Positions 9,773 to 59,687 are shown, counted from the stretch's first letter. The stretch: 64,000 nucleotides of DNA from Planctomycetota bacterium (GCA_019186845.1 JABARW010000007.1:1386-65385), one strand, 5' to 3'. The notes: a model not told the origin generated them from the letters alone. A program made the numbers and translations.

Positions 9773-9836
9773 AGTGAGGTCAAGCTCCCGGTTTGGGCCC
9801 GCCACCTTTGAGTTTCTTGAGGGCATCCAGGCCCTT
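9744..9836. repeat. 93-bp direct repeat copy B (authentic 3' end plus terminator of the coiled-coil gene)
   Basis: See copy A. The stems are identical and the 4-nt hairpin loop is inverted (gcaa vs ttgc). Confidence 0.85.
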
Positions 9837-10994
9837 CTTGGCGGCAACGCCGGCGCCCTTGTCCACCTTGCGGTCCTTTTCCATGTTGCCGAGGTTGACC
9901 TCGACGTCGTCCATGCCCTTGAACGCGGCATTGACCATGACGTTGGAGACTTCGACAGCTTCGCTGGCGCTGACCTGCTTCTTCATGAGGCCGGCCGCCG
10001 CCAGCTCGCTGAACATCTTTTCCTGCATCTCGCGCATGGCCTGCATCATCTCGGGGCTCGCGGTGCCTCCGCCGCCGCCGCTGGCCTTGATGTCGGCCGC
10101 GGCCACCAGCTTGTCCTTGAGATCCTCACGCAAGCCGGCGATTTCGGCCTTCAGCGTGGAGACGATCTCTTCCTGGCCGTTCCTGCGGTCGAGGTGCGAC
10201 TGCATGTCCGACATCATCTGCCGCACGCTCTTGATGGCCGTGCCGCCCACTTCAGCCACCGCCAACTCGGCGCCGGCAGTGCCCACCAAAGCTTCACGCA
10301 GCTCGCCAAGCTTGTCGTTGATGTTCTCGTTCTGCTCAATGACGGCCTTTTCCGTGTTGCGCGAGATCTGAACCAGTTGCTTGAGCTGGGACGCCATTTC
10401 CTTGATGGCCGCCTGGGTGTCGTCATCCAGCTTGGCGGAAGCCGAAACCTGGGAGACCACACTGTTCTGGGCCGCCAGAGTTTCACGCAACTCAGAGAAA
10501 CGGTCGTTCAGGAACTCCTGCTGCTGTTCCAGCATGGCCTGGCGGGTCATTTGCTCGCTCTGGGCGCGCGCCGCCTGGTTCATCATGAAGGCCTTGAGCT
10601 CGGCAATCTCGTCCGAGACCTGGGAGGTGGCCACCACGGCCTGGCTTTCGTTGCGCTGCGTCAACTGCTCGCGCAGGGCCGCCAGTTCCTCCTGCAGCTT
10701 GTTCTGACCTTCCTGCTCTTTCTTCTGCTCGGCAAAGAGGCGCTTGAACTCCTCCATGGAGTCCTGAACGATCTGCTGCTTGTCTTCCTTGATGTGGGCG
10801 ATATCAACGCCCGACCCCTCCATCTTGCCGATGATGTTCGTGACCGCCTGGGAGATCAGTTCATTGATCTTCTTGGCGTTGATTACGTTGACCTTCTTGA
10901 GGCCGCGCTCTTTGAAGGCGTCAATGTCGATCTGACGCGTCTGATTCTTGATCAGGCTCGCGTAATCGACGGGATTTTGCGCAGTCTCAGCCAT
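9780..10994 (-). CDS. hypothetical coiled-coil protein
   Basis: 404 aa. No signal peptide or TM segment. Long heptad-like E/Q/K/L-rich stretches (QEELAALREQLTQRNESQ...). There is an internal GGGGG tract and a basic Gly/Pro C-terminal tail, KKLKGGGPKPGA. Confidence 0.7.
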   Translation of the reverse strand: MAETAQNPVDYASLIKNQTRQIDIDAFKERGLKKVNVINAKKINELISQAVTNIIGKMEGSGVDIAHIKEDKQQIVQDSMEEFKRLFAEQKKEQEGQNKLQEELAALREQLTQRNESQAVVATSQVSDEIAELKAFMMNQAARAQSEQMTRQAMLEQQQEFLNDRFSELRETLAAQNSVVSQVSASAKLDDDTQAAIKEMASQLKQLVQISRNTEKAVIEQNENINDKLGELREALVGTAGAELAVAEVGGTAIKSVRQMMSDMQSHLDRRNGQEEIVSTLKAEIAGLREDLKDKLVAAADIKASGGGGGTASPEMMQAMREMQEKMFSELAAAGLMKKQVSASEAVEVSNVMVNAAFKGMDDVEVNLGNMEKDRKVDKGAGVAAKKGLDALKKLKGGGPKPGA

Positions 10995-15704: not shown

Positions 15705-17539
15705 GCGTTACTCAACTCCGCTTCCAACTGCTGCTTCTTGTGCAAGTCCGCGTAATAGCCGCCCCGGGCCAGCAGTTCTTCGTGCGTGCCGCGCTCCGTG
15801 ACCCGGCCTTCGCCCAGCACGATGATCTCGTCGGCGTGCTCGACCGTGCTGACGCGATGGCTGACAATCAGAGTCGTGCACTCCTTCATGACTTCCTTCA
15901 GGCCGCGCAGAATGGCCTCTTCCGTCTGGGTGTCCACAGCGCTGAGGCAGTCATCCAGCAGCAGGATGGCCGGCCTGCGCGCCACGGCGCGCGCAATGGC
16001 CACGCGCTGCTTCTGGCCGCCGGACAAGTTGACGCCCTTCTCGCCCAGCATGGTCTCGTACTGCCGGGGAAAGGCGAGAATGTCCGGCTCCACCTGAGCC
16101 AGCCGCGCGCATTGCTTGAGCCACTCCAAGTCGGGCTTGGCGCCGTGGACCCCCAGCCCCAGGTTCTGCAGGATGGTCTCACTGAACAGAAAGGTCTCCT
16201 GGGGCACCACTCCGATCTGCGTGCGCAGCACCTCCAGGGGAATCTCGCGCACGTCAATGCCGTCAATGAACAGGGCGCCCGGCGGCGGGTCATACAGCCG
16301 CGTGATCAGGTTCAGCAGCGTGCTCTTGCCGCTGCCCACCGCGCCCACGATGGCCAGAGTGCGCCCGGCCTTGACGCTGAGCGAAACATCGCTCAAGGCG
16401 GCCGGGCCGTTGTCGAAGAACCTGAAGGTGAGCCCCCGGGCCTCGATGTCTCCCCTCAGCCTGGTGACGTTGGCCGGGCGCGCCGCATCAACGATTTCCG
16501 CCGGGGTATTCAACACTTCCTCAATGCGCTTCATGCTGACGTTGGCACGCTGGTACAGCGTCACGACCCAGCCCATGCCCACCATGGGGCCGGACAGCTT
16601 GATCAGGTACATGAAGAATGCCGAGAACTGGCCCACGCTCAGCTCGCCCGAGATCACCAGATAACCGCCGTAGATGACCATCGCGAGGTCGGCCAGTGCC
16701 AGGAGCAGCACCAGCAGCGGCTGCTCCAGTGAGTCCAGGGCCGCCAGCTTCAGCGCACGCCGCTGATACTCACGGGCCAGCTTGCCGAAGGTTCTCACCT
16801 CGCTGGCTTCCTGCGCGAACGACTTGATGACCTTGGCCCCGGCGTAACTCTCTCGCGCGCGTTCGGCCAGCAGGTCGTACTGCTTCTGCAACTCGTCGTA
16901 GCGCTTCTCGACGCGGCTGGTCAGCAGCCAGACAATCAGGGGAATCAGGGGCAGGGTGCAGAGGCTGGCCAGCAGCAGCTTCCAGGAGATCATGCCCATG
17001 TAGAGGGGCACCATCGTGAAATAGAAGGCTGTATCGATGCCGATCAGCACGCCAACCCAGAAGAATTCGCGACAGGCGTTCATGTCGCTGGTGGCGAGCG
17101 TCATCATCTCGCCGATCTTGCTCTTGTCGTGGTACTTGGCAGGCAGCCGCTGGACGTGGCTGAAGAACCGCCCGCGCAGGTCGTGGGTCAGGTTCACCGC
17201 ACCGTGACTGTACTGCATGCTCATGTGGTAGCGGAAAATGCCCGTCACGGCGACCGTGATGACGAAGAACAGGCCGTAGAACCACATGCCGCCCATGAAG
17301 CTGTCGGGGCCAAACCAGCCCTCCGGCAGCATGGAGGTCAGGGGGCTGTCCACCACCTTGCCCACCGACTGCCCGCCCTGCCCCTGGGTAACGAACACGA
17401 GATGGTCAACGGCCCACATCACGATCTTGGGCGCGAAGGTATCCAGGGCGTCCACGATCAAGAGTGTGAGCGTGCCCCACAGGTAAGGCCGCCAGTAGGG
17501 CTTGACATATCGGAGCAGATGGAACAAATCGCGAAGCAT
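15701..17539 (-). CDS. ABC exporter subunit (TMD-NBD), Walker B Glu replaced by Asp
   Basis: Walker A GAVGSGKST, signature LSGGQKQRV, Walker B ILLLDDCLSAVD. It overlaps the downstream subunit by 4 bp. Start chosen at MLRDLFHLLRYVKPYW (ATG at 17539). The ORF extends to 17746. Confidence 0.85.
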   Translation of the reverse strand: MLRDLFHLLRYVKPYWRPYLWGTLTLLIVDALDTFAPKIVMWAVDHLVFVTQGQGGQSVGKVVDSPLTSMLPEGWFGPDSFMGGMWFYGLFFVITVAVTGIFRYHMSMQYSHGAVNLTHDLRGRFFSHVQRLPAKYHDKSKIGEMMTLATSDMNACREFFWVGVLIGIDTAFYFTMVPLYMGMISWKLLLASLCTLPLIPLIVWLLTSRVEKRYDELQKQYDLLAERARESYAGAKVIKSFAQEASEVRTFGKLAREYQRRALKLAALDSLEQPLLVLLLALADLAMVIYGGYLVISGELSVGQFSAFFMYLIKLSGPMVGMGWVVTLYQRANVSMKRIEEVLNTPAEIVDAARPANVTRLRGDIEARGLTFRFFDNGPAALSDVSLSVKAGRTLAIVGAVGSGKSTLLNLITRLYDPPPGALFIDGIDVREIPLEVLRTQIGVVPQETFLFSETILQNLGLGVHGAKPDLEWLKQCARLAQVEPDILAFPRQYETMLGEKGVNLSGGQKQRVAIARAVARRPAILLLDDCLSAVDTQTEEAILRGLKEVMKECTTLIVSHRVSTVEHADEIIVLGEGRVTERGTHEELLARGGYYADLHKKQQLEAELSNA

Positions 17540-17862
17540 AGGGCTGGCGCCCGGGGCGCCCGTTGAATCGTTGGCAATCAGAGTCGACTGATACGTATGA
17601 AGCGGCGCGAAGCGGAGTATCAGCGCCGGAAACCCGACGGAAACTGCGCGTGGAGAACGCCGCGAACCGTCTTGAGCATGGCTTTCTCCTTTCCGTCGGC
17701 CGCGCAGAATTGCGTCGGCAAGACGCTGCAACCTAGTCAGCGGCAATGGCCTGTCAACACCTCGCCACCGCGGCCCTTCCCTCGCGCGGCACTTTCTGGC
17801 GCTGAAGGCAACCCCGCCCTGTTACAATCCGGGGCCTTTTACGCGGGCCGCGGAGATACCTT

Positions 17863-42174: not shown

Positions 42175-42261
42175 GCACGGGTGGCGGAATTGGCAGACGC
42201 GCTCGTTTCAGGTGCGAGTGCTCGCAAGGGCTTGTGGGTTCAAGTCCCACCCCGTGCACCA
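42175..42261 (+). tRNA. tRNA-Leu (anticodon CAG)
   Basis: Hand-folded cloverleaf. Acceptor GCACGGG/CCCGTGC. D arm GCG-GAATTGGCAGA-CGC. Anticodon stem CTCGT/GCGAG with loop TTCAGGT. Long variable arm TGCTCGCAAGGGCTT. T arm GTGGG-TTCAAGT-CCCAC. Encoded ACCA end. Confidence 0.92.
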
Positions 42262-49160: not shown

Positions 49161-49778
49161 CTACCGTCTCTGGAGGATACTCAGGATGGCCGTGAGTTGC
49201 GTCTTCTGCATTTCGAGCTGATCCTTGATGGCCGTGATTTCCCCGGAGCTTCCACCGCCGCCACCCCCCCCCGCGACAAAATTCTCGCCGATGGTGCGCA
49301 GCAGTTCCTGAAGCTCGCCGTACCAACGGGCCTCCGGCATGCTGGTGACCAGTTTCTCGGCCAGCTCGCGGTTGGCCTTGCTTGAAGCGCTGAGATGCTT
49401 GAGCGCCTGATCAACGAGTTCGACTGCGCCATCGTCAAAGCCCACTTTGCTGCCCTTCTCGCGCATCTTGCGGATCTCTCCGGTCAGATCCTTGATGCCG
49501 TCGCGGATGTCGCCCAGAACGTTGCGCAGCGGGGTGAGGTCGATGTTGACCGTCACCGGGCCGCCCCCGCCTCCGCCGCCGGCCACAACGGGCGCTGTGG
49601 TGCGGGCGGGCGCGGGAGCCGCCTCCGTCGCCCCGGAAGAGGTCGCCGTCCCGGTTTCGTCGCGCCCTTCGGCCTCCGGCTCATCCGGCACGACGGCAGC
49701 CGTGCGGTCATCCACGTTCTTGGGAGTCGCCGTCTTCATTCGCTTGGACAGGCTTGCGAGCTTAGCCAGGTCAGCCAT
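49161..49778 (-). CDS. hypothetical helical protein with two hepta-glycine tracts
   Basis: Start at MADLAKLASLSKRMK, preceded by AAAGGAA. There is a disordered N-terminus, then GGGGGGG, a helical core, then GGGGGGG and a C-terminal helix. The ORF extends to 49865. Confidence 0.6.
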   Translation of the reverse strand: MADLAKLASLSKRMKTATPKNVDDRTAAVVPDEPEAEGRDETGTATSSGATEAAPAPARTTAPVVAGGGGGGGPVTVNIDLTPLRNVLGDIRDGIKDLTGEIRKMREKGSKVGFDDGAVELVDQALKHLSASSKANRELAEKLVTSMPEARWYGELQELLRTIGENFVAGGGGGGGSSGEITAIKDQLEMQKTQLTAILSILQRR

Positions 49779-49811: not shown

Positions 49812-49847
49812 AAAAGCAAAGCGCCCGACCGCGATTTGGCCGGGCGC
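49812..49847 (-). terminator. putative intrinsic terminator/attenuator between the actin-like gene and the poly-Gly gene
   Basis: Minus strand: agcgcccggcc / ggtcgggcgct hairpin (10 bp, one mismatch) followed by TTGCTTTTC. Confidence 0.55.
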
Positions 49848-49872
49848 TCGGCTCTGAAACCGCAACGGGATT

Positions 49873-52695
49873 CTATTCTTCGTTGCTCAGGGCCGCAAGC
49901 AAGCAGCCCTTGGCCGTGGCATTGAACTGGTCCTCGGCGCGGCGGATGTCGGAAACCTTGATCGGGAAGCTCTTGGACACCTTACTGAACTCGTCCTTGA
50001 ACACCTCGATGAACCCGCCCACCATCGACGTGCCGCCGGAAACCGCGATCGGCACGGGCTTGGGGAAGTTCGGGATGTCCTTGGTGACTGCGAACTTCTT
50101 CATGATGTTTTCGAGCGAATACTTGATGAGGTGGCGATAGTAGATGACGATCGCTTCCTCTTCGGGCGTCTTGGGCGCGTTGATGTCCACGCCCGACTCC
50201 TTGATGTGAGTGATGCGCGAGGCGGCGCAACCCATGACCTGCGCGGCCTGCTGGTCAATCCAGTCACCGCCCTTGGCAGACGAGAACGAAATGACGTTCA
50301 TCGAGCGGAAGGCCACGCACACGTTCACCATGCCGCCGCCGCAGGAGATGCCGATGCCCGTGAATTCGTCGTCGCCGAGTTCAGAGAAGACGATGGCCAG
50401 ACCTTCATTGAAGGGCGTGCCCTTGTACCCCAGGCGCTGCAGCAGGCCGTTGGCGATGTTCGTGTGGTACACGATGTTCATCGTGCTGTCCACCGGGTCC
50501 GCCGGGATCGAGTAGTAGCAGGCTTCGCCATCCACGCGCGGCGGGCCCAGAATCTTCTTGAACAGCTCGACTTCCATGGGCATGGCGTCGGCGTCCGTGG
50601 GGCTGATCAGGCCGTTCTTCATCGGGCGGCGCATTTCGCGATTGAAGATGTTCGCCAGCTCAAACGCGTCCTGACCGATGACGTACAGCTTGTTTTCACG
50701 CTTGATGTACGGCACGCCCTGGCTCTTCAACATCTTCAGGGTGTAGGGGTCTTCCGGCACGTCAAGGAACGCGTTGCGCGCGGGGAAGAATTCAATGCCG
50801 CCTTCGGCGTCCATGCGGGCAGCGACCAGGTTGGCCGTTCCCACGTCAAGGCCGCGTCCCAGCGGCGCTCCAGAATCGTCACTCACGAGAGAAACCTCCG
50901 ACTGTGAATCCTTGGTGTTCGCGGGTTGAGCATGGCCGCCCGAGACCGTCCCGGAAACCCTGCCCCCGTCCACCCTGGGGTTATTCTGACCTTGGCCTTT
51001 AGCGGCATGGGCCGCCCAGGCCTGTTCTATCTTCGCCTCTCTGGCACGGCGGGCCTTCTGCTCCGCCTCCAGCCGCGCGATCTCCTGCTCCACCGCGCGC
51101 TTGTTCTTGTCCTTCTCGCTCTGCCGCCTGGCGTGCTTCTCGCGCCGGGCCGCCATTTCGCGCTCAAACTCGCTGCCATGCTCCTGCGCGACCCTGATTC
51201 CTTCCTGCTCGGCGCTCTTGCGCTGCCGTTCCTGCTCGAAGGTGGCGCGGGCGTCCTGCTGTTCGCGCTGCCGCACCGCCTGCTCTTCCGCGCGACGCCT
51301 GGCTTCGCGCTGCTGCGCCTGTTCCTGCGCCTGCTGCCGCAGCAGCTCGGCCCTTCTCTGCTCGGCCAGCGCGGCGTCCTCCCGGCGCTTGCGCTCATCT
51401 TCCTGCCTGCGCTTCTGGCTTTCAGCCCTGGCCTGCGCGGCCTTTCGGGCCTCTTCGGCCAGGCGCCGTTCTTCTTCCTGCTGCTCCTGTCTGAGCTGCT
51501 CGGCCTCCTGCTCCTGCCGCGCCTGCTCTTGTGCCGCCTCCCGCTCCAGCCTCTGGCGCTCAGCCTCCAGACGGTCCTGTTCCGCGGCATCCCTCGCGGC
51601 CTGCTCGGCTCTTGCCTGCTCCTGCCTCGCCAGCTCCGCCGCCTCCCGCTCCTCTTCAAGCCGCCTTTGCTCATCAGCGCGGCGGGCAATCTCTGCCAGT
51701 TCCTCGTTCTCGGTCAGACGGCGCGCGAGATGGTCGCTGCGCACGATACGCCCGGTTTCGTCCCGCTCATAGGTCAACGTGCGATCCGGCGCAACGGGCC
51801 CCCCGATATCGGTCCGCGAAAATGTCAGCGTGTCTCCGCCGCTGCTCGGGATTCCGTCCCCAAACGCCGTGGAACCCGCCATCTCCTCTTCAGACGTCAA
51901 AGGACCAGAGCCGGAACTTTCCAGTTCCGCGTCCGCTTGCGCGGGGTCTTCTCCAGAAATTCCGAATGGCCTGATATCTACCAGCTTAGGGTCGGTTACG
52001 CCAGTGGCTAGTGGGGCGCTGTCCTCGGCCGCCACTTCATCTCCCCGGTCCGTATCGCTTATCGGACCCAGTGTCAGATTCTGGCCGGCCTCGTGTATGG
52101 CCATTGTCATTGGGCCGGCCTGCATGTCGGGGGCCGCAGGCAAGCCCATGGCGTCGAGCTTCATATCCGCGACGGTCGCCGGCCCCGCCTCGCCCCTGAG
52201 TTGCTCGAGCTTGGCACGCTCGATAGCCTCGGTATCGTCCCAACCTTCCTGAATCTCGCCGACTTCCGCAGCCTGCGCGTCAGGGTTGAACTCTTCGGGC
52301 CCGGTTTCCGACGCAACATCTTCGAGATTGATGTCCCCCACGTCGTCGTCGTGTTCTTCCACGACTTCGTGGCCGCCATCGCCCTCCAGGGAAATATCTC
52401 CGAGGCTGTCGTCTTCTTCTTCCACCACCTCATGAACCGGGGGCTCACCTTCGTGATGGGCTTTGACCTTGCCGCGCTCTGCTGCCTGCCTCATTCGATC
52501 GGCCAAAGACGGAGCGGCCTGGCGAGCGCGCTCGGCGGCCCGTTGAAGGCGCTGCTCCACGGTTTCACCGAGGGGGGCAACGTCGTCCAGACTCAGATCG
52601 AGATCCTCGTCTTCTTCCTCGAAAACCTGGCCCTCATGCGGCGCATCGTCGTCTTGGGGCGGAGGAACGCGGGACATTGGGAGAGCCGGGGGCAA
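49873..52695 (-). CDS. actin/MreB-fold (ASKHA) protein with ~610-aa acidic + charged-helix N-terminal extension
   Basis: 940 aa. The C-terminal ~330 aa carry GLDVGTANLVAA (phosphate 1), RPMKNGLIS, GIGISCGGGMVNV (phosphate 2) and VSGGTSMVGGF (adenosine motif). The N-terminus has acidic repeats and an E/R/Q/A-rich stretch of ~240 aa. The start could be M1 (52695) or M7 (52677). Confidence 0.75.
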   Translation of the reverse strand: MPPALPMSRVPPPQDDDAPHEGQVFEEEDEDLDLSLDDVAPLGETVEQRLQRAAERARQAAPSLADRMRQAAERGKVKAHHEGEPPVHEVVEEEDDSLGDISLEGDGGHEVVEEHDDDVGDINLEDVASETGPEEFNPDAQAAEVGEIQEGWDDTEAIERAKLEQLRGEAGPATVADMKLDAMGLPAAPDMQAGPMTMAIHEAGQNLTLGPISDTDRGDEVAAEDSAPLATGVTDPKLVDIRPFGISGEDPAQADAELESSGSGPLTSEEEMAGSTAFGDGIPSSGGDTLTFSRTDIGGPVAPDRTLTYERDETGRIVRSDHLARRLTENEELAEIARRADEQRRLEEEREAAELARQEQARAEQAARDAAEQDRLEAERQRLEREAAQEQARQEQEAEQLRQEQQEEERRLAEEARKAAQARAESQKRRQEDERKRREDAALAEQRRAELLRQQAQEQAQQREARRRAEEQAVRQREQQDARATFEQERQRKSAEQEGIRVAQEHGSEFEREMAARREKHARRQSEKDKNKRAVEQEIARLEAEQKARRAREAKIEQAWAAHAAKGQGQNNPRVDGGRVSGTVSGGHAQPANTKDSQSEVSLVSDDSGAPLGRGLDVGTANLVAARMDAEGGIEFFPARNAFLDVPEDPYTLKMLKSQGVPYIKRENKLYVIGQDAFELANIFNREMRRPMKNGLISPTDADAMPMEVELFKKILGPPRVDGEACYYSIPADPVDSTMNIVYHTNIANGLLQRLGYKGTPFNEGLAIVFSELGDDEFTGIGISCGGGMVNVCVAFRSMNVISFSSAKGGDWIDQQAAQVMGCAASRITHIKESGVDINAPKTPEEEAIVIYYRHLIKYSLENIMKKFAVTKDIPNFPKPVPIAVSGGTSMVGGFIEVFKDEFSKVSKSFPIKVSDIRRAEDQFNATAKGCLLAALSNEE

Positions 52696-52855: not shown

Positions 52856-53491
52856 ATGAGGTGCGAGATGGGACCACTGAAGTACAACTCGCAGGGCCCA
52901 AATCCCCGCCGCGATGCCCGCGCGACCGGCCTGCGGCGCGTTCCCTACGGCTATGCGCCGCTGGTTACATGGCACCAACCTGCCGCCCCGCAGCCCGTAT
53001 CCGTTCGCCCTGATCCGCCGCGCAACGCGGCCGCCTGGTGGGCCTTCAGCCTGGGGCTGGGCTCACTCATGTTTGCTCTGCGGGCCCACGAAGACACTTT
53101 GGCCAAGGCCGCCATTGCGCTCTCGCTGCTGGCCATGGCCAGCGGAATCATCGGGCTCTCCATCTCGGGAATGTTCCGGCTCAAGAAGGGCCGCTGGACA
53201 TCCACCCTGGGGTTGATGATGGCCACCCTGGCACTGATCGTCTCGCCGCGCCCTTCGGGCCCGGTATCCGGCCCCGGCTTGACCATCTGCGAGCCCGCCT
53301 GCCCATACGAAACAGAATGCGTGCCGGAATTGCCTCCGGCCCCTGAGGCACGCCCCTTGCCGCCCCATGCGCAAGCCGCCCCCAAGTCTCCGGCTGCAAA
53401 CCAGCCTCTCCCGGAGCGTCAGACTGCACCCCCGGCACCCCGACAGGCAACTCCGCCGGCGGACCCCGACGAGCAGGAAGAGCAATTCTGA
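52856..53491 (+). CDS. hypothetical membrane protein with Pro-rich C-terminal tail
   Basis: 211 aa. Three hydrophobic helices (AAWWAFSLGLGSLMFAL, AAIALSLLAMASGIIGLSI, TLGLMMATLALIV). The tail is Pro/Ala-rich. Confidence 0.55.
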   Translation: MRCEMGPLKYNSQGPNPRRDARATGLRRVPYGYAPLVTWHQPAAPQPVSVRPDPPRNAAAWWAFSLGLGSLMFALRAHEDTLAKAAIALSLLAMASGIIGLSISGMFRLKKGRWTSTLGLMMATLALIVSPRPSGPVSGPGLTICEPACPYETECVPELPPAPEARPLPPHAQAAPKSPAANQPLPERQTAPPAPRQATPPADPDEQEEQF

Positions 53492-53678: not shown

Positions 53679-54161
53679 CTACTTCAGGGCTTCGTCCGCA
53701 TCCTGGGCCAGTTCAAGCTGGCTGATTATGTATTTCTTGCGGTTGTCTTCGGCCCGCTGCAGCCTGACAAGCGCCTCCACCGCCGCGACATGGGCCAGTT
53801 CCCGTGCCAGGTTCAGCGCGTAAGTCGTGAGTTTCGCGCCCTGGGCTTCCATGTTTCCAAGCATGTGCAGGGAGAAGCGGCCGCCCGTAAGGGTGGTCAG
53901 CCGGCCCCACAGGCTCGTCAGCGGACCGATCACCCAGCGTAACAGGGGCCGGCCCCGGCCGAAGAGTCCCAGCAGGCGTGCCGCTTCTGACTGCCGGTCG
54001 CGCAGTTCGGTCACGTGGGCTTCGAGGCGGGCACGGGTCTCTCCCGCGTGAATGCGGACGTGGGCGGCGCACACGTTGGCGGCCGTCAGTGAGGTCAGAT
54101 AGATGGCTCTCATCACCCGCACGAAGCGGCTGGAAAGTGCCCTGCGCTCGGAATCGTCCAT
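53679..54161 (-). CDS. hypothetical helical protein
   Basis: 160-aa ORF in the gap before alr, with a helix-rich composition. No motif recognised. Confidence 0.45.
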   Translation of the reverse strand: MDDSERRALSSRFVRVMRAIYLTSLTAANVCAAHVRIHAGETRARLEAHVTELRDRQSEAARLLGLFGRGRPLLRWVIGPLTSLWGRLTTLTGGRFSLHMLGNMEAQGAKLTTYALNLARELAHVAAVEALVRLQRAEDNRKKYIISQLELAQDADEALK

Positions 54162-54214
54162 GCAGTTCAGCCCCGCTTCAGGCCGATAGCTATAGTGCGC
54201 TTGCGGGTGCGGCC

Positions 54215-55333
54215 ATGTCCAGACTTCCCCAGCGCGTGTGGGCTGAAATCAGCCTCGACCACGCGCGGCACAACCTGAAACAGATTCGGCGCGCAGCGGG
54301 CCGGCGCAAGGTCATGGCCGTGCTGAAGGCCAACGCCTACGGCCACGGCGCCGCGGAAATGGCGCGGGTGTTCGTGCGCGATGGAGTGGACGCCCTCGGC
54401 GTGGGCGATTCCGGTGAAGCACTGGAACTGCGGGAAGCGGGCATCAAGGCCCCCATCCTGATCGTGGGGGCCATCATTGAGGGCGAGATGCCCGCTGTCG
54501 TCGAGCAGGACCTGGAAGTCAACCTGCACACCGTGGAAATGGCTGAAGCGCTGAACCAGGAAGCCGCGCGCCAGGGCAAACGGGTGCGCGTGCACTTGAA
54601 GATCGACACCGGCATGGGCCGCCTGGGCATGCAGCCCTTTCAGGCCGTGCCGTTCCTGCACCGCATGCACAACCTCGCCAACCTTGAACTGGTGGGCATG
54701 TGCACGCACTTCAGCTACCCCTACGAAGAGAACCCCAGCTTCACGCTGCGCCAGCTTGAGCGCTTCAACGTCGCCGTGGATGTCGCGCGCCGCCTGGGCT
54801 ACGACAATCTGACACTGCACGCGGCCTCGAGCCTGGCCCTGTTCCGGCGCAAAGAGTCGCTGTTCAACATGGTGAGGCCGGGCGTGGCCCTGTGGGGGCT
54901 GCTGCCCGGCGACGAGCGGGGCCTGGCGAAGAGACTGAAACCGGTGCTGTCGTGGAAGACGCGCATCGTGTTTTTGAAGGACGTGCCCGAAGGGCAGCCC
55001 ATCGGCTACAACCGCACCTACTACACGCCCAACCCCACGAAAATCGCCACGCTGCCCGTGGGCTACAACGACGGCTACCGCCGCGCTCTGAGCAACAAGG
55101 CGGAAGTTCTGATCCGCGGAAAACGCTGCCCGGTCGTCGGCCTTGTAAGCATGGACTACACCACGGTGGATGTCAGCGCGGTGCCGCAGGCGCAGGTGGG
55201 CGACGTTGTAACGCTCATTGGCTCCGACGGCAGGCAGGCGATCTCCGCCGAAGGTCTCGCGGCGGACGCGGGCGTCAGCGTCTATGAACTTCTCTGCGGC
55301 CTTGGGCGCCGCGTGGTGCGGGTTTATTCTTAG
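54215..55333 (+). CDS. alr: alanine racemase
   Basis: MSRLPQRVWAEISLDHARHNLKQIRR...VMAVLKANAYGHGA contains the PLP-lysine motif. PVGYNDGYRRALSN and the C-terminal beta domain are present. The upstream part of ORF 53978..55333 is rejected. Confidence 0.9.
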   Translation: MSRLPQRVWAEISLDHARHNLKQIRRAAGRRKVMAVLKANAYGHGAAEMARVFVRDGVDALGVGDSGEALELREAGIKAPILIVGAIIEGEMPAVVEQDLEVNLHTVEMAEALNQEAARQGKRVRVHLKIDTGMGRLGMQPFQAVPFLHRMHNLANLELVGMCTHFSYPYEENPSFTLRQLERFNVAVDVARRLGYDNLTLHAASSLALFRRKESLFNMVRPGVALWGLLPGDERGLAKRLKPVLSWKTRIVFLKDVPEGQPIGYNRTYYTPNPTKIATLPVGYNDGYRRALSNKAEVLIRGKRCPVVGLVSMDYTTVDVSAVPQAQVGDVVTLIGSDGRQAISAEGLAADAGVSVYELLCGLGRRVVRVYS

Positions 55334-55335
55334 GC

Positions 55336-55725
55336 ATGCTTCCTCTGCTGAACTTCGGCCCCAAGGGCCGGCCCTGGCCTGTCGATCACGGTGCACGCGC
55401 GCCCGCCTGGCTGCGATCGTTTGACGTTTGGCGCTGGATGGAAAGCCCCACTGGGCGGCTGATGCTCTCCTTCGGGCTGGTGGTGCTGTCTTCTGTGGTG
55501 ATTTCACTGCTGTTCGAGGTCTGCCGACGGCGCCATACCTACGGTGAGAACTTCAGGTTTCTCGTGACTCTCTTGATCGGGAGCTGGGGCTACTTCGTAC
55601 TTGGCTCACTGTTCGACCTGGAGACGACCTGGCACGCGGCAAACATCGCTTTGGTTACCATTGTGGTCAGCACGAGTTACCTGATGCGTCGGCCTGAGAA
55701 AACCGGCGTTCCTACCGACGCTTGA
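55336..55725 (+). CDS. hypothetical membrane protein
   Basis: 129 aa. Three hydrophobic helices. It starts 2 nt after the alr stop. Confidence 0.5.
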   Translation: MLPLLNFGPKGRPWPVDHGARAPAWLRSFDVWRWMESPTGRLMLSFGLVVLSSVVISLLFEVCRRRHTYGENFRFLVTLLIGSWGYFVLGSLFDLETTWHAANIALVTIVVSTSYLMRRPEKTGVPTDA

Positions 55726-55950: not shown

Positions 55951-56664
55951 CTAGATTGAGCGCTTGGCCCGCTCGGCCAGCTTCCGGGCCTCTTCCTCTT
56001 TGCGGGCCTTGGCGCGCTCTCGCTTGGCCGCGTTCTCGGCCTCCATCTTCTCCTGGTTCTGGCGAATCTGTTCTGCCCTCTCGGCCAGCTCCTGCTGTTC
56101 GCGCTGATGCTCCGACTCCTGATGGGCCTGAAAGTCCTCAACGGTCATCGTCGGTTGAATGGCCTTGCGCGTAAACGGAAAGAGCCGCCCCGCGTTGGGG
56201 TTGAAGAGAAACGCTAACGCGCCCCCGATAGCCGCGACCAGGCCGGCCTCAAACAGCACGCCCACCGCCACACGGCTCAACGTATCGGGAAGCACACTCT
56301 TACCCACGCCAAAGGCAGCAAACAGCAGTACCGGCGCCAGAAACACAAACGCCGTGACCGCGGCCCCCTGCATGATCTTGAGGCGCTTGGCGCGAATCAT
56401 GAAGCCCTGCACCCGGCTGCAGCGCGGGCAGGGCGCGATGTCCACCGCCTTGGCCAGTTCCTTCTGCAAACGCTGATAGGCCGCCTTCTCAGCACTGCTT
56501 TCCGCCGCCTCCTGAAACATGAACAGGGGTGCAAGCCCGTGGCCTGAGCCGCTGCGCGCTGCCACGTACACATACTCGCAGCGGCACTGCTCGCAGCACA
56601 CCTCTTTGAGGCTCGAGCCCTCGAGTTGGGCGGTGTAAGAAGTGCCAATCGGGATCAGAACCAT
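55951..56664 (-). CDS. hypothetical zinc-ribbon membrane protein with charged C-terminal helix
   Basis: 237 aa. CCEQCRC...CPRC Cys pairs. Two TM helices (GAAVTAFVFLAPVLLFAAFGV, VAVGVLFEAGLVAAIGGALAFLF). The C-terminus is E/R/K/Q-rich. Confidence 0.6.
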   Translation of the reverse strand: MVLIPIGTSYTAQLEGSSLKEVCCEQCRCEYVYVAARSGSGHGLAPLFMFQEAAESSAEKAAYQRLQKELAKAVDIAPCPRCSRVQGFMIRAKRLKIMQGAAVTAFVFLAPVLLFAAFGVGKSVLPDTLSRVAVGVLFEAGLVAAIGGALAFLFNPNAGRLFPFTRKAIQPTMTVEDFQAHQESEHQREQQELAERAEQIRQNQEKMEAENAAKRERAKARKEEEARKLAERAKRSI

Positions 56665-56808: not shown

Positions 56809-59565
56809 TCAGGTTTGGGGCAGCTCCTTCATAAGCGCCTGGGTCTGGTCCAACTCGCGCTGGCGCACGATGTTGCCGCTCTGGATCATCTGCGAATACT
56901 CGCGGGCGGCCTCTTCCAGCAAGGCGCGGCAGCGCGCGATCGGGTCGCCGGTCACCGCGCCCTGGGCCGCAAGCGAGGGCCCGTGCTTCATCAGGAAAGG
57001 CACAAAGCGCAAAACCAGGTCGCCCTTGGCCATTTCCTCGCTGGTCATGCCCAGAGCCGTGAGTTCGTCAAACTTCGCCAGGCTTTCTTCAAAGCGACGG
57101 CAGGCGTCAACCAGCTTGCCGTCGTGGGCCAGCAACTCGCCCTCCAGCGCCAGATTCATGGCCTCGAAGTCAATCTGCCCCTGCGCCACGGAAGTCTGAC
57201 GCGCCGTGGCCACCAGGTCGCGGGCGTCGGACATGCGGCCCAGGGCCACGTAAGCCCGCGCCAGGCCGGTCTCGATGACGGGCAGCGCGGCGGTCGTGCC
57301 GGCGTTGATGCACTCCGAGCGCGCCTCGCTCAGGCGTGCCACGGCCTGTTCGTGGCGCCCGCCATAGAGCGCGATGAGCCCCAGGTTGAGCAGGCAGTAA
57401 AGCGTGGCCGCCGCCTCGTCGCGCCGGCGCGCATTACTCAGGATGTTCTCGTAGGTCTGCACCGCTTCCTCGATGCGGCCCTGCCAGTAGTAAACCGAGC
57501 CCAGATTGAGCCGGGCCATTTCCGCGCGGCCGATGTCGCCGATGGCGACGAGCAGGTCGTAGGCTTTCTTGAAGGCGGCCTCGCCTTCCAGGGGGCGGCC
57601 GCGGTGGGCCTTGACGGAACCCAGGGCCAGGAGCGTGCCTGCAAGATCAAAGCGGTTGGCCGTCTTTCCGGTCAGCTCGTAGGCCTCGTCCAGCAGCATT
57701 TCGGCCTGATCGAGCCTGTTCTCCTGACGATAGACGTTGGCCGCCTGGTGGAGGCAATCAAGCGCGCGGCCGTGGAGCCCCTGAGCGAGGAAGATCTCGC
57801 GAGAGACGAAGAACAGATCCCGCGCGCGCTCAGTTTCGCCGCGCCGGCGCACAATCACGCCAAAGGAGAAGGCCAGCTCCGCGTAATCCAGCGTGCCGCG
57901 CGGGGTCAGTGAAAGGGCAACTTCGAGTTCAGCCACAATTTCGGGGTGGCGCCCCGAAACCACATATACGTCGGCCGTCTCGCACAGGGCAAGTCGCAGC
58001 GTCTCGGCATCAAGCTGGGAGCGGTCCGGCAGCCGTCCGATGACGTCTGCCGCGCGACCGTAATTACCGAGCTTGATGTGGGCGCGCGTAAGGGCCAGCA
58101 GCAACGCAGCTTTGTGAGCCACCGTTTCGGGGCTGTCCTTGATCTGCGCCAGCACCGGCAAAATGCGGTCTGCCAGTTCCACGACGCCGAGAAACAGGCC
58201 TCGCTTGATGACATCGCGCGCGGCGGCGGCCGCCCAGCTCAGGGCTTCGGTGTAGGCGTGGCATTCCAGGGCATGGTGCATCTGCAGGCAGGCCATGCGC
58301 TGGGGAAGGGCCGCCGTGAAGGGCGCCAGGGCGTTGATGGCGGCGCGGTGGAACTGGCGCTGGTCGGCCGCCGGCATGACCATTTCGCAGGCGTCACGGA
58401 ACACGGGGTGCCGGAACACCCAGTCGCCCTCGGCGCGCTGCAGGGGCTTGAGGAAACCCTGCTTGATCAGGCGCACGGCGTGGCGCGGCAGGTCTTCAAT
58501 GTCGCCGCCGAGCTCGCGGATCATGGCCACGAGCATGGGCTGGGGCGCGCGCAGGCCAATGGCGCTTGCCGCGACAATGGCCTGGAGTGTGGGCCCCGGC
58601 AGGCCGCGCAGGTTGTCGGCGATCATGGGCGCCGTGGACTTGGTCGAGCCCGCGCTTTCGACGCCCTCGGCCACGGTCCAGGTGTTCTCCGCGCTGCTGA
58701 TGATGATGTGCTGCGTGACCAGCAGGCGGATCTGCTGTTCGAGCACCAGGGCGTTACCGTTGCTGCGCCGCCACAGCGTTTCATTGAGGCGGCGCGGCAG
58801 CACAGTGCCTTTGAGAATGCGGCTGACGAACACGCTCTGCTCTTCGGCTGTGAACGCCGGCACATGCACGACGGCGGGCTCGCGACCGAGCGAGCGCACG
58901 CGGGAAAGGGCTTCGGCCGAATTGGCGCAGGTGGCGACAATCACCGGCGACTCGGCCTCTGCCAACCCCTGGAGCGCGCGGCCGATCAACTGGCCACTGG
59001 AGGAGTCCGCGCGGTCGAGGTCGTCCATGACCAGCAGCAGGCGCTGGCCGCCGCCCCGGGCATCCAGCGTCAGGCAGCCAAGCAGGCCGCGCAACGCGGC
59101 CACCAGCTCGCCGAAGTATCCGTACTTCGTGAGGGAACGCTCAAGTGTGTCCGCGGCGTCGTAGCCCGCACTCCTCAACAGATAGGGCAAGCCGGCCTTG
59201 AGGTCCTTGCCGCGCGCCGTCTCGCCGTGGCGCGAGGCCAACTCGGACAACTGGACCCGAAGCTTTTCCACGGGGTCTTGAATGGATTCGTCTTCGTCCA
59301 GCAGGGCGAGCAGCATCTCCATGACCAGCGACCCGGGCACACTCACGGGGCGCGGCGCAGTCACCGTCAAAATGCGGAACTCGGCGCGATCCTTGAAGGC
59401 ATGGGCCACCAGCCGTGACTTGCCCACGCCGGCCTCTCCGGTGACCAGAACGATGGGAGACTGGTCGGGCGCGGCGAGGCTTTGGGCCAGTTGCGCCAGT
59501 TGGGCCTCCCGGCCGACAAACTCCGGCACCGCCGGCAACGTCAGAAGTACGCGCGTGTAGGCCAT
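56809..59565 (-). CDS. STAND/AAA_16-type P-loop NTPase fused to TPR repeats
   Basis: FVGREAQLAQLAQSL...IVLVTGEAGVGKSRL (Walker A), LLLVMDDLDRAD (Walker B), and a C-terminal half of TPR-like repeats. No HTH or enzymatic effector domain recognised. Start at MAYTRV (59565). The ORF extends to 59643. Confidence 0.75.
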   Translation of the reverse strand: MAYTRVLLTLPAVPEFVGREAQLAQLAQSLAAPDQSPIVLVTGEAGVGKSRLVAHAFKDRAEFRILTVTAPRPVSVPGSLVMEMLLALLDEDESIQDPVEKLRVQLSELASRHGETARGKDLKAGLPYLLRSAGYDAADTLERSLTKYGYFGELVAALRGLLGCLTLDARGGGQRLLLVMDDLDRADSSSGQLIGRALQGLAEAESPVIVATCANSAEALSRVRSLGREPAVVHVPAFTAEEQSVFVSRILKGTVLPRRLNETLWRRSNGNALVLEQQIRLLVTQHIIISSAENTWTVAEGVESAGSTKSTAPMIADNLRGLPGPTLQAIVAASAIGLRAPQPMLVAMIRELGGDIEDLPRHAVRLIKQGFLKPLQRAEGDWVFRHPVFRDACEMVMPAADQRQFHRAAINALAPFTAALPQRMACLQMHHALECHAYTEALSWAAAAARDVIKRGLFLGVVELADRILPVLAQIKDSPETVAHKAALLLALTRAHIKLGNYGRAADVIGRLPDRSQLDAETLRLALCETADVYVVSGRHPEIVAELEVALSLTPRGTLDYAELAFSFGVIVRRRGETERARDLFFVSREIFLAQGLHGRALDCLHQAANVYRQENRLDQAEMLLDEAYELTGKTANRFDLAGTLLALGSVKAHRGRPLEGEAAFKKAYDLLVAIGDIGRAEMARLNLGSVYYWQGRIEEAVQTYENILSNARRRDEAAATLYCLLNLGLIALYGGRHEQAVARLSEARSECINAGTTAALPVIETGLARAYVALGRMSDARDLVATARQTSVAQGQIDFEAMNLALEGELLAHDGKLVDACRRFEESLAKFDELTALGMTSEEMAKGDLVLRFVPFLMKHGPSLAAQGAVTGDPIARCRALLEEAAREYSQMIQSGNIVRQRELDQTQALMKELPQT

Positions 59566-59687
59566 GCGAAGTTCAATGCCTGAAGGGAACGTGACACAAG
59601 TGTATAGGTTGGCTAGTGGACGGGGCCAATGGTTTGCTTGCAAGACGTCTCTCGAATATCGTGGATGCCTACTCGTGGAGCCAGCCG

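What the first reader, a model, noticed from the sequence alone, without database searches (positions are those of the whole stretch)
49873..52695. Actin/MreB-fold protein fused to a ~610-residue acidic and charged-helix extension: candidate novel cytoskeletal element
Residues ~612-940 (about nt 49873..50862) carry the ASKHA/actin-fold motifs in canonical order and spacing:
- GLDVGTANLVAA (compare MreB IDLGTANT)
- RPMKNGLIS (compare MreB RPMKDGVI)
- GIGISCGGGMVNV (compare DIGGGTTEV; here the usually conserved Asp is Ser)
- VSGGTSMVGGF (compare LTGGGALLRGL)

The domain is the size of MreB or ParM (~330 aa). It is preceded by an acidic region with three repeats, a Gly/Ser/Pro-rich disordered part, and a ~240-residue E/R/Q/A stretch. 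Among the characterised bacterial actins I know (MreB, Mbl, FtsA, ParM, AlfA, Alp7A, MamK, PilM, BARP), none has this architecture.

The gene sits upstream of lpxA and birA on the same strand and is not in an mreCD, plasmid-partition or magnetosome context. If the genome belongs to an FtsZ-less lineage such as the Planctomycetota (inference only), an atypical actin-like protein would be of particular interest for division or shape.
Basis: partly seen in the sequence, partly recalled or inferred. Interest (0 to 1): 0.85.

Follow-up and report, generated by a model that had tools for sequence, protein, structure and literature searches.

The report
Long-tailed volactin-type bacterial actin
This gene from an uncultured planctomycete encodes a member of the already named "volactin" actin family with an unusual 600-residue acidic and rod-like tail at its front end, and a conserved internal start signal suggests that the cell may also make a tail-less version.

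Summary
The ORF is real, and the C-terminal 328 residues are a bona fide filament-type actin fold. The core is not a new family. It matches Pfam PF25216 "Volactin" end to end (E 5.6e-81). At least 573 species-level genomes carry relatives, and the best 80 are almost all Planctomycetota MAGs. MamK and MreB are the nearest solved structures.

The new part is the N-terminal extension. It is translated and under purifying selection (dN/dS 0.10-0.26). It consists of a disordered acidic array of short repeated motifs followed by a ~245-residue, hydrophobic-poor charged helix, probably a single alpha-helix about 37 nm long. The extension is confined to one small clade, where its length runs from 0 to about 610 residues, while the actin core stays 97-99% identical within the long-tailed subclade.

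Three further findings:
- An invariant GGAGG-N8-GTG sits exactly at the tail/actin junction. It is the actual start of the tail-less relatives, so two isoforms are plausible.
- The coiled-coil partner gene that precedes volactin in most Planctomycetota lies 40 kb away in this window.
- A clade-specific 205-residue gene and a conserved terminator hairpin follow the actin gene.

Verdict: a new variant of a known kind. The function is inferred, not shown.

The parts
49873..52677 (-). Long-form CDS, 934 residues from the ATG at 52677 plus a TAG stop at 49873-49875. The longest ORF extends to a TTG at 52695.
   Evidence: Homologues P0001-P0003 and P0007 begin at this Met.
51775..52677 (-). Acidic, mostly disordered N-terminal region (residues 1-301, ATG numbering) that carries short linear motifs.
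   Evidence: Composition: net charge -38 in the first 160 residues. AF2 pLDDT is below 50 over most of the region. dN/dS is 0.18-0.20. The motifs are shared with the sister clade L007-L018.
52579..52626 (-). Acidic repeat 1, VFEEEDEDLDLSLDDV.
   Evidence: Nearly invariant in the 8 long forms and present in L016 and L017.
52381..52434 (-). Acidic repeat 2, HEVVEEEDDSLGDISLEG.
52315..52371 (-). Acidic repeat 3, HEVVEEHDDDVGDINLEDV.
52198..52245 (-). GWDDTEAIERAKLEQL motif, predicted as a short helix.
   Evidence: G, W, D, D and T are invariant in the 8 long forms. Predicted helix 149-161 with pLDDT about 72.
52087..52125 (-). MQAGPMTMA motif. It occurs once here and up to four times in sister-clade tails.
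51715..51780 (-). TLTYERDETGRIVRSDHLARRL, a small beta-hairpin motif that leads into the long helix.
   Evidence: Conserved in the 8 long forms and duplicated in five of them. Present in L007. Predicted strands at 303-305 and 311-313.
51004..51738 (-). Charged E/R/Q/A helix of about 245 residues (residues 314-558), a candidate single alpha-helix spacer about 37 nm long.
   Evidence: About 50% charged residues and 4-11% hydrophobic. Heptad a/d hydrophobic occupancy is at most 0.25 over most of it. AF2 predicts continuous helix 314-427 plus 431-558 with pLDDT up to 91. dN/dS is 0.10-0.26.
50887..51003 (-). Gly/Ser-rich disordered linker (residues 559-597).
50895..50899 (-). GGAGG, a Shine-Dalgarno-like motif inside the CDS, 8 nt upstream of the GTG.
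   Evidence: Invariant in 17 of 17 clade sequences although the overlapping amino acids vary. Coordinates verified.
50884..50886 (-). Invariant GTG (Val604 of the 940-codon ORF), a candidate internal start for a 337-residue tail-less isoform.
   Evidence: It is the start of the short-form relatives L087 and L019. Several 337-residue gene calls in the database begin here.
49876..50886 (-). Volactin-family actin domain.
   Evidence: PF25216, E 5.6e-81, profile positions 3-321 of 321. AF2 pLDDT 92.3, pTM 0.90. Foldseek: MamK TM 0.70, BeeR 0.71, MreB 0.64-0.69. dN/dS 0.02-0.07.
49819..49849 (-). GC-rich hairpin plus T-run immediately after the stop codon, resembling an intrinsic terminator.
   Evidence: 12-bp stem with 9 GC pairs. 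A hairpin at the same place is kept in all 18 clade loci, with paired changes in the stem.
49161..49778 (-). Clade-specific 205-residue gene. It has a basic amphipathic N-terminus (MADLAKLASLSKRMK), two poly-Gly linkers and helical segments. No family could be assigned.
   Evidence: Follows the actin gene in 18 loci, including the short forms. No significant Pfam hit.
9780..10994 (-). Homologue of the coiled-coil partner that sits immediately upstream of volactin in most Planctomycetota. Here it is about 40 kb away.
   Evidence: A partner profile built from 52 sequences hits this ORF at E 1.5e-20. It has the same N-terminal domain, coiled coil, poly-Gly stretch and C-terminal ...LDALKKLKGGG.
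52856..53491 (+). Divergently transcribed Pro-rich gene whose sequence has several hydrophobic, transmembrane-like stretches. It is syntenic in the clade.
   Evidence: Translation. A gene of about 200-210 residues sits in the same position and orientation in L001, L003 and L087. Homology between them was not tested.

Best explanation
The gene encodes a chromosomal actin-like ATPase of the volactin family (Pfam PF25216) from an uncultured Planctomycetota lineage.

**The core.** The 337-residue C-terminal core is the ancestral protein. By homology and fold it binds nucleotide and polymerises into cytoplasmic filaments. This step is inferred.

**The tail.** In this clade the reading frame has been extended upstream of the ancestral start. 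The added ~600 residues are translated and selected; this step is shown. They form:
- a disordered, strongly acidic array of short repeated motifs;
- a ~245-residue charged helix with too few hydrophobic residues for a coiled coil, most likely a stiff single alpha-helix about 37 nm long;
- a flexible Gly/Ser linker.

The tail would project from the filament surface and hold the acidic motifs away from the polymer, as docking sites for partners or as a charged spacer. This step is inferred.

**Two isoforms.** The ancestral ribosome-binding site and GTG start are kept intact inside the long frame. The gene therefore probably yields two products: an abundant tail-less subunit and a rarer tailed subunit that co-assembles with it. 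This is inferred from sequence conservation only.

**Likely partners.** Candidates are the clade-specific 205-residue protein encoded downstream and the unlinked homologue of the coiled-coil protein that accompanies volactin elsewhere. Both end or begin with a basic amphipathic LAKL..LK peptide that could bind membrane or the actin. This is speculative.
For: **Family and fold**
- PF25216 over the full profile, 273 bits against a cutoff of 35.
- AF2 pLDDT 92.
- Best structural matches are filament formers: MamK, MreB/Mbl, BeeR and actin.
- The profile search of the PDB finds MamK first.
- Haloferax volactin forms dynamic filaments attached to the membrane by their tips (PMC10869688).

**The tail is real and selected**
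- Seven independent assemblies keep the frame, with in-frame indels and conserved motifs.
- dN/dS is 0.10-0.26 at dS up to about 2.
- The sister clade shares the motifs.

**The helix**
- Composition and heptad analysis.
- AF2 predicts continuous helix 314-558.

**The internal start**
- GGAGG-N8-GTG is invariant in 17 of 17 sequences, while the amino acids coded across it vary. Only 12 of 65 amino-acid-invariant codons in the region use a single codon.
- The short-form relatives L019 and L087 start there, with an in-frame stop just upstream.
- 43 of 60 stand-alone volactin genes have a GGAG-type motif about 8 nt before their ATG.
- No such motif precedes the long-form ATG.
- Synonymous divergence is 2.5-4 times lower in the actin part than in the tail of the same gene.

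**Partners**
- The upstream coiled-coil gene is present in 60 stand-alone loci, absent next to the gene in this clade, and found at 9780-10994.
- The downstream gene is present in 18 clade loci.
Against: - No experiment exists on any bacterial member of the family. Polymerisation is inferred.
- The phosphate-2 Asp is Ser in the whole bacterial branch, whereas Haloferax volactin has Asp. Nucleotide handling may therefore differ.
- Shine-Dalgarno use is sparse in this lineage, so a GGAGG need not act as a ribosome-binding site.
- The motif conservation comes from 17 related sequences, not from independent events.
- The lower dS of the actin part could reflect codon bias of a highly expressed single product or recombination, rather than a second isoform.
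- The helix could pair with a second chain. AF2 confidence falls to 50-78 in its second half.
- Close relatives manage without any tail, so the tail is not needed for the core function.
- No partner interaction was tested. No homology was found between the tail and the coiled-coil partner, or between that partner and the downstream protein.
Confidence: 0.55

Rival explanations
1. The functional product is only the 337-residue actin made from the internal GTG. The upstream 600 codons are a lineage-specific, largely neutral read-in that is translated little or not at all.
For: - A conserved internal GGAGG-GTG.
- Tail-less close relatives with the same synteny.
- Tail length varies from 0 to about 610 residues among proteins that are 87-99% identical in the core.
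- No SD-like motif before the long-form ATG.
- Several gene callers chose the 337-residue form.
Against: - dN/dS of 0.10-0.26 in the tail at saturating dS.
- Motifs are invariant across 8 proteins and shared with the sister clade.
- All indels are in frame over 1.8 kb in at least 20 lineages.
- A confident 245-residue helix and a conserved hairpin motif are not expected from untranslated sequence.
Confidence: 0.15
2. Only the full-length ~100-kDa protein is made. The GGAGG-GTG is conserved for another reason, such as protein-level constraint at the domain boundary, a translational pause site or mRNA structure. The tail regulates polymerisation of its own actin domain in cis.
For: - SD motifs are used by only a minority of genes in this lineage.
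- Internal SD-like sequences are known from general knowledge to pause ribosomes.
- The Glu and Val codons concerned are also amino-acid-invariant.
- The tail carries small hydrophobic motifs (GPMTMA) that could dock on the actin.
Against: - The nucleotides G at -5(3) and G at -3(1) are kept while the amino acids change: S/Q/P/E and V/D/G/E/A.
- The same GTG is demonstrably the only canonical start in L019.
- The motif matches the usual volactin ribosome-binding site in spacing and sequence.
Confidence: 0.2
3. The protein is a DNA- or cargo-segregating actin of the ParM/Alp/salactin kind rather than a shape or division element. The acidic tail would replace an adaptor protein.
For: - Volactin dynamics were likened to ParM, and the related haloarchaeal salactin helps to partition DNA (PMC10869688).
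- The nearest solved relative, MamK, positions organelles.
Against: - The context is a chromosomal housekeeping one: lpxA, biotin ligase and alanine racemase.
- No ParR-like gene or plasmid or phage genes are among the neighbours. Centromere-like repeats were not searched for.
- The family is a single-copy, near-universal gene in many Planctomycetota genomes, with extreme sequence conservation.
Confidence: 0.07
4. The C-terminal domain is a non-polymerising ASKHA enzyme or chaperone of the Hsp70, EutJ or sugar-kinase type.
For: - The phosphate-2 Asp is replaced by Ser.
- EutJ appears among weak sequence and structural matches.
Against: - No Hsp70, FGGY or ROK Pfam or NCBIfam hits even at E up to 1.
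- The top 40 structural matches are MamK, MreB, BeeR, actin and Arp. EutJ ranks 42nd.
- The founding family member forms filaments in vivo.
Confidence: 0.03

Closest known systems
Volactin (VolA, HVO_2015) of Haloferax volcanii; Pfam PF25216
   Same: - Same Pfam family, matched over the whole profile.
- Same size of core.
- Shares the 'FTG.G' lead-in to phosphate 2 and the 'GGTS' adenosine motif.
- A chromosomal gene outside mreCD, par or mam contexts.
   Different: - Bacterial rather than archaeal.
- Phosphate 1 is MreB-like (GLDVGTAN) rather than 'SQDGSETV'.
- Phosphate 2 has Ser where Haloferax has Asp.
- Carries a 600-residue tail.
- No experimental data exist.
- I could not obtain the Haloferax sequence to measure identity or place both in a tree.
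Stand-alone volactin-family proteins of Planctomycetota MAGs (330-400 residues)
   Same: - 52-57% identical core with the same invariant residues.
- A GGAG-type ribosome-binding site before the core.
   Different: - They carry only a 20-90-residue acidic N-terminus.
- They are preceded in 60 loci by a coiled-coil partner gene in the same orientation.
- Here the partner is unlinked, and a long tail and a different downstream gene are present.
MamK (magnetosome actin)
   Same: - Best match among solved structures by fold (TM 0.70-0.72) and by sequence profile (E 1e-6).
- Weak hit to the NCBIfam MamK model.
   Different: - 16-17% identity.
- NCBIfam score of 18-21 bits against a cutoff of 400.
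- No magnetosome genes nearby.
MreB / Mbl
   Same: - Similar phosphate-1 and 'RPMK.G' motifs.
- TM 0.64-0.69.
   Different: - No Pfam MreB_Mbl hit at E up to 1.
- PDB profile E-value only 0.06.
- No mreC or mreD adjacent.
Saltatorellin (MamK-like actin of Saltatorellus, Planctomycetota; bioRxiv 10.1101/817700)
   Same: - A second, MamK-like actin in a planctomycete.
[quoted passage not shown]
- It may be the same family.
   Different: - Identity with PF25216 could not be tested.
- Its C-terminus from the published primer (…YWEQLK) does not resemble the family's …GCLVAALSE end.
ER/K single alpha-helix domains (myosin VI/X, caldesmon) and side-arm-bearing polymers such as neurofilament M/H (from general knowledge)
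   Same: - A long, charged, hydrophobic-poor helix with many i/i+4 opposite-charge pairs.
- An acidic projection attached to a polymerising core.
   Different: - Analogy only, with no homology.
- The helix here is richer in Ala and Gln than classic ER/K helices.
- Monomeric state is untested.

Membership tests
Volactin family (Pfam PF25216) | Score above the Pfam gathering threshold over the full-length profile | tested here: met
   272.9 bits against a cutoff of 35; profile positions 3-321 of 321; residues 614-935.
Volactin family (Pfam PF25216) | Actin fold with four subdomains | tested here: met
   AF2 pLDDT 92.3, pTM 0.90. Foldseek probability 1.00 to MamK, MreB and actin.
Volactin family (Pfam PF25216) | Nucleotide-binding motifs as in the founding member (phosphate 2 with Asp) | tested here: not met
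   The window has GIGISCGGG, and the Ser is invariant in 60 relatives. Haloferax volactin has LGVDFGAGT. Phosphate-1 Asp, the NEG Glu and the GGTS adenosine motif are present.
Volactin family (Pfam PF25216) | Forms dynamic filaments in vivo and affects cell shape | not testable with these tools
   Shown only for Haloferax volcanii (PMC10869688).
MamK | NCBIfam NF040964 score at or above its cutoff | tested here: not met
   17.6-20.7 bits against a cutoff of 400.
MamK | Location in a magnetosome gene cluster | tested here: not met
   The neighbours are lpxA, a biotin ligase, a methyltransferase, alanine racemase and a STAND NTPase.
MreB/Mbl | Pfam MreB_Mbl match and mreC/mreD neighbourhood | tested here: not met
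   No such Pfam hit at E up to 1. No mreCD among the neighbours.
ParM/Alp plasmid-segregation actins | Plasmid or phage context with adaptor gene and centromere repeats | tested here: not met
   Chromosomal housekeeping neighbours that are syntenic in 18 genomes. Centromere repeats were not searched for specifically.
Hsp70 / sugar-kinase ASKHA clades | Profile or structural assignment to these clades | tested here: not met
   No Pfam or NCBIfam hits. They are absent from the top structural matches.
Single alpha-helix (ER/K-type) domain | Long helix, about 50% charged, rich in i/i+4 opposite charges, lacking a hydrophobic heptad seam | tested here: met
   Hydrophobic content 4-11%, a/d occupancy at most 0.25 over most of the segment, up to 10 i/i+4 pairs per 28 residues. 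AF2 helix 314-558.
Single alpha-helix (ER/K-type) domain | Monomeric and stable in isolation | not testable with these tools
   Needs circular dichroism, analytical ultracentrifugation or SAXS on the isolated segment.
Saltatorellin | Sequence relationship to the Saltatorellus ferox Poly30 protein | not tested

The most novel reading that the evidence does not exclude
One gene makes a self-decorating actin filament. An abundant tail-less subunit, translated from the conserved internal GGAGG-GTG, builds the polymer. A rarer full-length subunit co-assembles and displays a rigid spacer about 37 nm long, tipped with a multivalent acidic motif array. This built-in adaptor would take over the role of the separately encoded coiled-coil partner found next to volactin in most Planctomycetota. 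Given how widespread and how strongly conserved the core is in an FtsZ-less phylum, the system could be a main organiser of membrane shape or division there.
Probability: 0.22. Interest if true: 0.8.

Novelty: new variant of a known kind. Interest (0 to 1): 0.58.

Why it matters
Planctomycetota lack FtsZ, and the machinery behind their budding, fission and membrane remodelling is largely unknown. This analysis points to several leads.

- **A widespread, uncharacterised bacterial branch.** The volactin family has so far been characterised only in a haloarchaeon, unless saltatorellin (untested here) belongs to it. At least 573 species-level genomes carry a relative, and the best 80 are almost all Planctomycetota MAGs.
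- **A conserved operon partner.** In 60 of the stand-alone loci examined, a coiled-coil gene sits directly upstream.
- **A very strongly conserved core.** dN/dS is 0.02-0.07.
- **An unusual architecture for a prokaryotic actin.** I know of no other bacterial actin that carries its own long disordered and rod-like projection.
- **A cheap experimental test.** The conserved internal start gives a clear two-isoform hypothesis that can be tested easily.

If confirmed, this would be a bacterial example of tuning filament surface properties by isoform mixing. It would also give a handle on the binding partners of a candidate planctomycete cytoskeleton.

Tried and rejected
**Searches that gave nothing useful**
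- The full-length protein search was swamped by the low-complexity helix and returned only the 7 long homologues. I repeated it with the core alone.
- The search with tail residues 1-313 returned nothing, not even the known homologues, because acidic low-complexity candidates filled the list. It is uninformative.
- Cluster-member names for ten distant representatives were almost all 'hypothetical'. They gave no help with taxonomy or with finding the archaeal founder.
- Literature searches for PF25216 and for MamK-like proteins in Planctomycetes found no description of this architecture.
- Rfam found only one tRNA in the window, so no rRNA is available for taxonomy.
- Searching for the saltatorellin primer in the held loci found no match.

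**Homology tests that were negative**
- The tail against the upstream coiled-coil partner of stand-alone loci: only compositional matches, E at least 0.12.
- The downstream 205-residue protein against the partner: BLASTP E 2.3; hhalign probability 0.2%.
- The shared terminal 'LAKL..LK' peptide is therefore only a motif resemblance.

**Readings rejected**
- The long open frames upstream of some stand-alone genes (L031, L053, L062, L071, L055) are Arg-rich out-of-frame readings of the partner gene, not extensions.
- The actin of 'Ca. Uab amorphum' belongs to the eukaryote/Asgard-like group and is a different family.
- The sigma-70 promoter scan found nothing above chance.


Full report

Yes. The minus-strand ORF 49873..52695 is open for 940 codons.

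The seven full-length relatives found in public data (893-936 residues, 61-99% identical) align from the Met at codon 7. The likely CDS is therefore 49873..52677, or 934 residues.

So are the three acidic repeats, the Gly/Ser-rich part and the 240-residue E/R/Q/A block.

The ORF is not an assembly fusion. The tail/actin junction is in frame in assemblies from NCBI (two MAGs), ENA, JGI and Logan, and all length differences are in-frame indels.

**2. What is the C-terminal domain?**

- **Pfam.** Residues 614-935 match PF25216 'Volactin' at E 5.6e-81, 273 bits against a cutoff of 35, covering profile positions 3-321 of 321.
- **Other families.** There is no MreB_Mbl, FtsA, Hsp70 or sugar-kinase hit. 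NCBIfam gives only a far sub-threshold MamK hit of 18-21 bits against a cutoff of 400.
- **Structure.** An AlphaFold2 model built with 60 relatives is confident (pLDDT 92.3, pTM 0.90). Its best PDB matches are all filament formers:
  - MamK, TM 0.70-0.72
  - the verrucomicrobial BeeR filament, TM 0.71
  - MreB/Mbl, TM 0.64-0.69
  - eukaryotic actins
- **Sequence profile.** A profile of the family finds MamK first in the PDB (E 1e-6) and MreB second (E 0.06).

The refuting outcome 'Hsp70 or sugar kinase' did not occur.

Volactin is HVO_2015 of Haloferax volcanii. It forms dynamic filaments that span the cytoplasm, touch the membrane with their tips, and promote the rod-to-disk transition (PMC10869688).

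**3. How common is the family, and where?**

- The core alone retrieves 1895 proteins at 90% clustering. The top 120 all carry PF25216, and where named they come from Planctomycetota MAGs. One is already called 'disk-shape morphogenesis protein volactin'.
- An exhaustive HMMER scan of 1.84 billion cluster representatives gives 1151 clusters at E ≤ 1e-3 and 369 at E ≤ 1e-30.
- At least 573 GTDB species-representative genomes encode a relative. The best 80 are almost all uncultured Planctomycetota.

The actin core is therefore a known, named and widespread family. Its bacterial branch has no experimental study that I could find.

'Saltatorellin' is the MamK-like filament-forming actin of the planctomycete Saltatorellus (bioRxiv 10.1101/817700). 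It may be the same family, but I could not test this. The actin of 'Ca. Uab amorphum' is a different, Asgard/eukaryote-like protein.

The bacterial branch differs from the archaeal founder in the nucleotide motifs:
- Phosphate 1 is MreB-like (GLDVGTAN), against SQDGSETV in Haloferax.
- The phosphate-2 Asp of Haloferax (GVDFGAGT) is an invariant Ser (GISCGGG) in all 60 aligned relatives.
- The phosphate-1 Asp, a conserved Glu in the 'NEG' motif and the GGTS adenosine motif are all kept.

**4. The N-terminal extension**

No Pfam or NCBIfam model matches the extension.

AlphaFold2 on the full protein gives this layout, in ATG numbering:

| Residues | Prediction |
|---|---|
| 1-301 | disorder, with short helices at 40-70 and 149-161 |
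| 303-313 | small beta-hairpin |
| 314-427 and 431-558 | essentially continuous helix, pLDDT up to 91 |
| 559-606 | disordered linker |
| 607-934 | actin domain |

The helix is about 50% charged and only 4-11% hydrophobic. Its best heptad a/d hydrophobic occupancy is at most 0.25 over most of its length, and it has many i/i+4 opposite-charge pairs. That profile fits a single alpha-helix better than a coiled coil. At 1.5 Å per residue, about 245 residues would span about 37 nm.

The extension is translated and selected. Results:

| Region | dN/dS |
|---|---|
| Acidic part | 0.18-0.20 |
| Helix | 0.10-0.26 |
| Actin core | 0.02-0.07 |

These tail values hold even where synonymous sites are near saturation.

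The core is 97-99% identical among proteins whose tails are only about 50% identical.

**5. The extension is a clade-specific, modular and length-variable feature**

The full ~600-residue form occurs only in the window and seven relatives.

The sister clade (GTDB loci L007-L018, core 87-91% identical) has genuine acidic tails of 220-480 residues. They share the same short motifs in variable copy number:
- VFEEEDxDLDLS
- HE(V/I)VE..D..DL
- GPMTMA, up to four copies
- RDETGRIVR in L007
- EDELDL

These tails lack the long helix. L007 is an exception, with a Lys/Glu-rich one.

Two close relatives have no tail at all. L019 (a 134-kb contig of a species-representative MAG) and L087 both carry an in-frame stop 14-26 codons upstream of the core, in the same gene neighbourhood.

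Across the wider family, N- and C-terminal extensions and even tandem double-actin proteins occur. The long upstream open frames in some high-GC loci are spurious.

**6. A conserved internal start**

At the tail/core junction every clade member has GGAGG, 8 nt, then GTG (window 50895-50899 and 50884-50886).

- In 17 sequences the five G/A positions and the GTG are invariant. The amino acids encoded across the motif change: S/Q/P/E at -5, always ending in G, and V/D/G/E/A at -3, always starting with G.
- By contrast, only 12 of 65 amino-acid-invariant codons in the surrounding 88 codons use a single codon.
- In the tail-less L019 this GTG is the only canonical start.
- 43 of 60 stand-alone volactin genes carry a GGAG-type motif about 8 nt before their ATG.
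- Most other genes in this lineage, including the long-form ATG itself, have none.
- Synonymous divergence of the core is 2.5-4 times lower than that of the tail in the same gene. This would fit heavier translation of the core, but it has other possible causes.

I infer that the ancestral start has been retained and that a 337-residue tail-less isoform is probably made alongside the long one. This rests on sequence conservation only.

**7. Neighbourhood**

I clustered ORFs around 86 loci.

- **Partner gene.** A coiled-coil gene sits directly upstream of stand-alone volactin in 60 loci. It has four parts: a conserved N-terminal domain, a coiled coil, a poly-Gly stretch, and a C-terminal ...GGIAANLAKLKKLKGGG. 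It is never adjacent in our clade. A profile of it finds a clear homologue in the window at 9780-10994, about 40 kb away (E 1.5e-20).
- **Downstream genes.** Our clade has a 205-residue gene directly downstream in 18 loci, followed by lpxA in 17 loci. The 205-residue protein begins MADLAKLA.LSKR.K and contains two poly-Gly linkers.
- **Terminator hairpin.** A GC-rich hairpin with a T-run follows the actin stop codon in every clade locus, with paired changes in the stem. The actin gene may therefore be largely monocistronic.
- **No detectable homology.** None was found between the tail and the partner, or between the partner and the downstream protein. Both of those proteins carry a terminal basic amphipathic LAKL..LK peptide. 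From general knowledge it resembles membrane-targeting helices such as that of MinD. This is a lead, not a test.
- **Copy number.** Only one volactin gene is in the window.

**8. Most likely mechanism**

Shown:
- a volactin-family actin fold;
- a translated, selected tail made of a disordered acidic motif array, a long charged helix and a linker;
- a conserved internal GGAGG-GTG that is the start codon in tail-less relatives;
- loss of linkage to the usual partner gene.

Inferred:
- The core polymerises.
- The tail projects from the filament and presents multivalent acidic motifs at the end of a stiff spacer, to dock partners or to space or repel filaments.
- Long and short isoforms co-assemble.

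Rivals:
- The tail is dispensable read-in (0.15).
- There is a single long product with cis-regulation (0.20).
- It has a segregation role (0.07).
- It is a non-polymerising ASKHA protein (0.03).

**9. Comparison with what is known, and novelty**

By Pfam criteria the protein is a member of the volactin family. It departs from the characterised archaeal founder at phosphate 2. It is not a MamK, MreB or ParM by their defining features (see the membership table).

The tail architecture and the putative two-isoform arrangement are undescribed. I therefore rate it a new variant of a known kind, not a categorically new element.

**10. Verdict**

Interest is moderate to high (0.58). The reasons are that the family is widespread and uncharacterised in an FtsZ-less phylum, and that the tail and internal start give a concrete, cheaply testable hypothesis.

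Noticed in passing
window 9780-10994 (-): A 404-residue coiled-coil protein homologous to the gene that sits immediately upstream of volactin in 60 other Planctomycetota loci. Here it stands alone next to a sigma-70/ECF-like ORF and a pterin-dehydratase-like ORF; I named both by eye only.
   Followed up: partly
window 49161-49778 (-): A 205-residue protein of unknown family with a basic amphipathic N-terminus and two poly-Gly linkers. It follows the actin gene in all 18 clade loci, including the tail-less forms. The longer 234-codon ORF is an artefact that reads through the terminator hairpin.
   Followed up: partly
window 49819-49849 (-) and the same position in L001, L003, L007-L019, L087 and L088: A conserved GC-rich hairpin with a T-run directly after the actin stop codon. 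The stem sequence differs between loci but the pairing is kept.
   Followed up: yes
P0129, P0131, P0135, P0130, P0152 and about 15 others: Proteins of about 700 residues that match the volactin core twice, apparently tandem double-actin fusions. There are also family members with long C-terminal extensions (P0140 at 891 residues, P0144 at 1160 residues).
   Followed up: no
window 49876-52677: Synonymous divergence is 2.5-4 times lower in the actin part than in the tail of the same gene: dS 0.17 against 0.43-0.60 versus L001, and 0.48 against about 2 versus L003.
   Followed up: partly
window 55951-56664 (-): A 237-residue protein with Cys-x2-Cys pairs (zinc-ribbon-like), hydrophobic segments and a C-terminal E/R/K/A charged helix. 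L003 has ORFs of similar size at the same relative position. In Haloferax a small CPxCG zinc-finger gene (HVO_2014) lies next to volactin, and L006 has a Cys-rich coiled-coil gene two genes upstream.
   Followed up: no
window 5661-6878 (-): A full-length bacterial serpin (PF00079, E 8e-98).
   Followed up: no
window 56809-59643 (-): A 944-residue STAND-type NTPase (AAA_16/NACHT-like) with TPR repeats. A similar gene is near the actin locus in L003.
   Followed up: no
window 53978-55333 (+): An alanine-racemase-like ORF, recognised by eye and by Ala_racemase Pfam hits on a nearby upstream gene in L003 and L087 (opposite orientation to the window ORF relative to the actin gene). It overlaps a longer spurious antisense ORF (54167-55507).
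   Followed up: no
window 42175-42258 (+): A single tRNA gene, the only Rfam match in the window.
   Followed up: no
window 13620-17746 (-): Two adjacent ABC exporter genes with fused membrane and ATPase domains.
   Followed up: no
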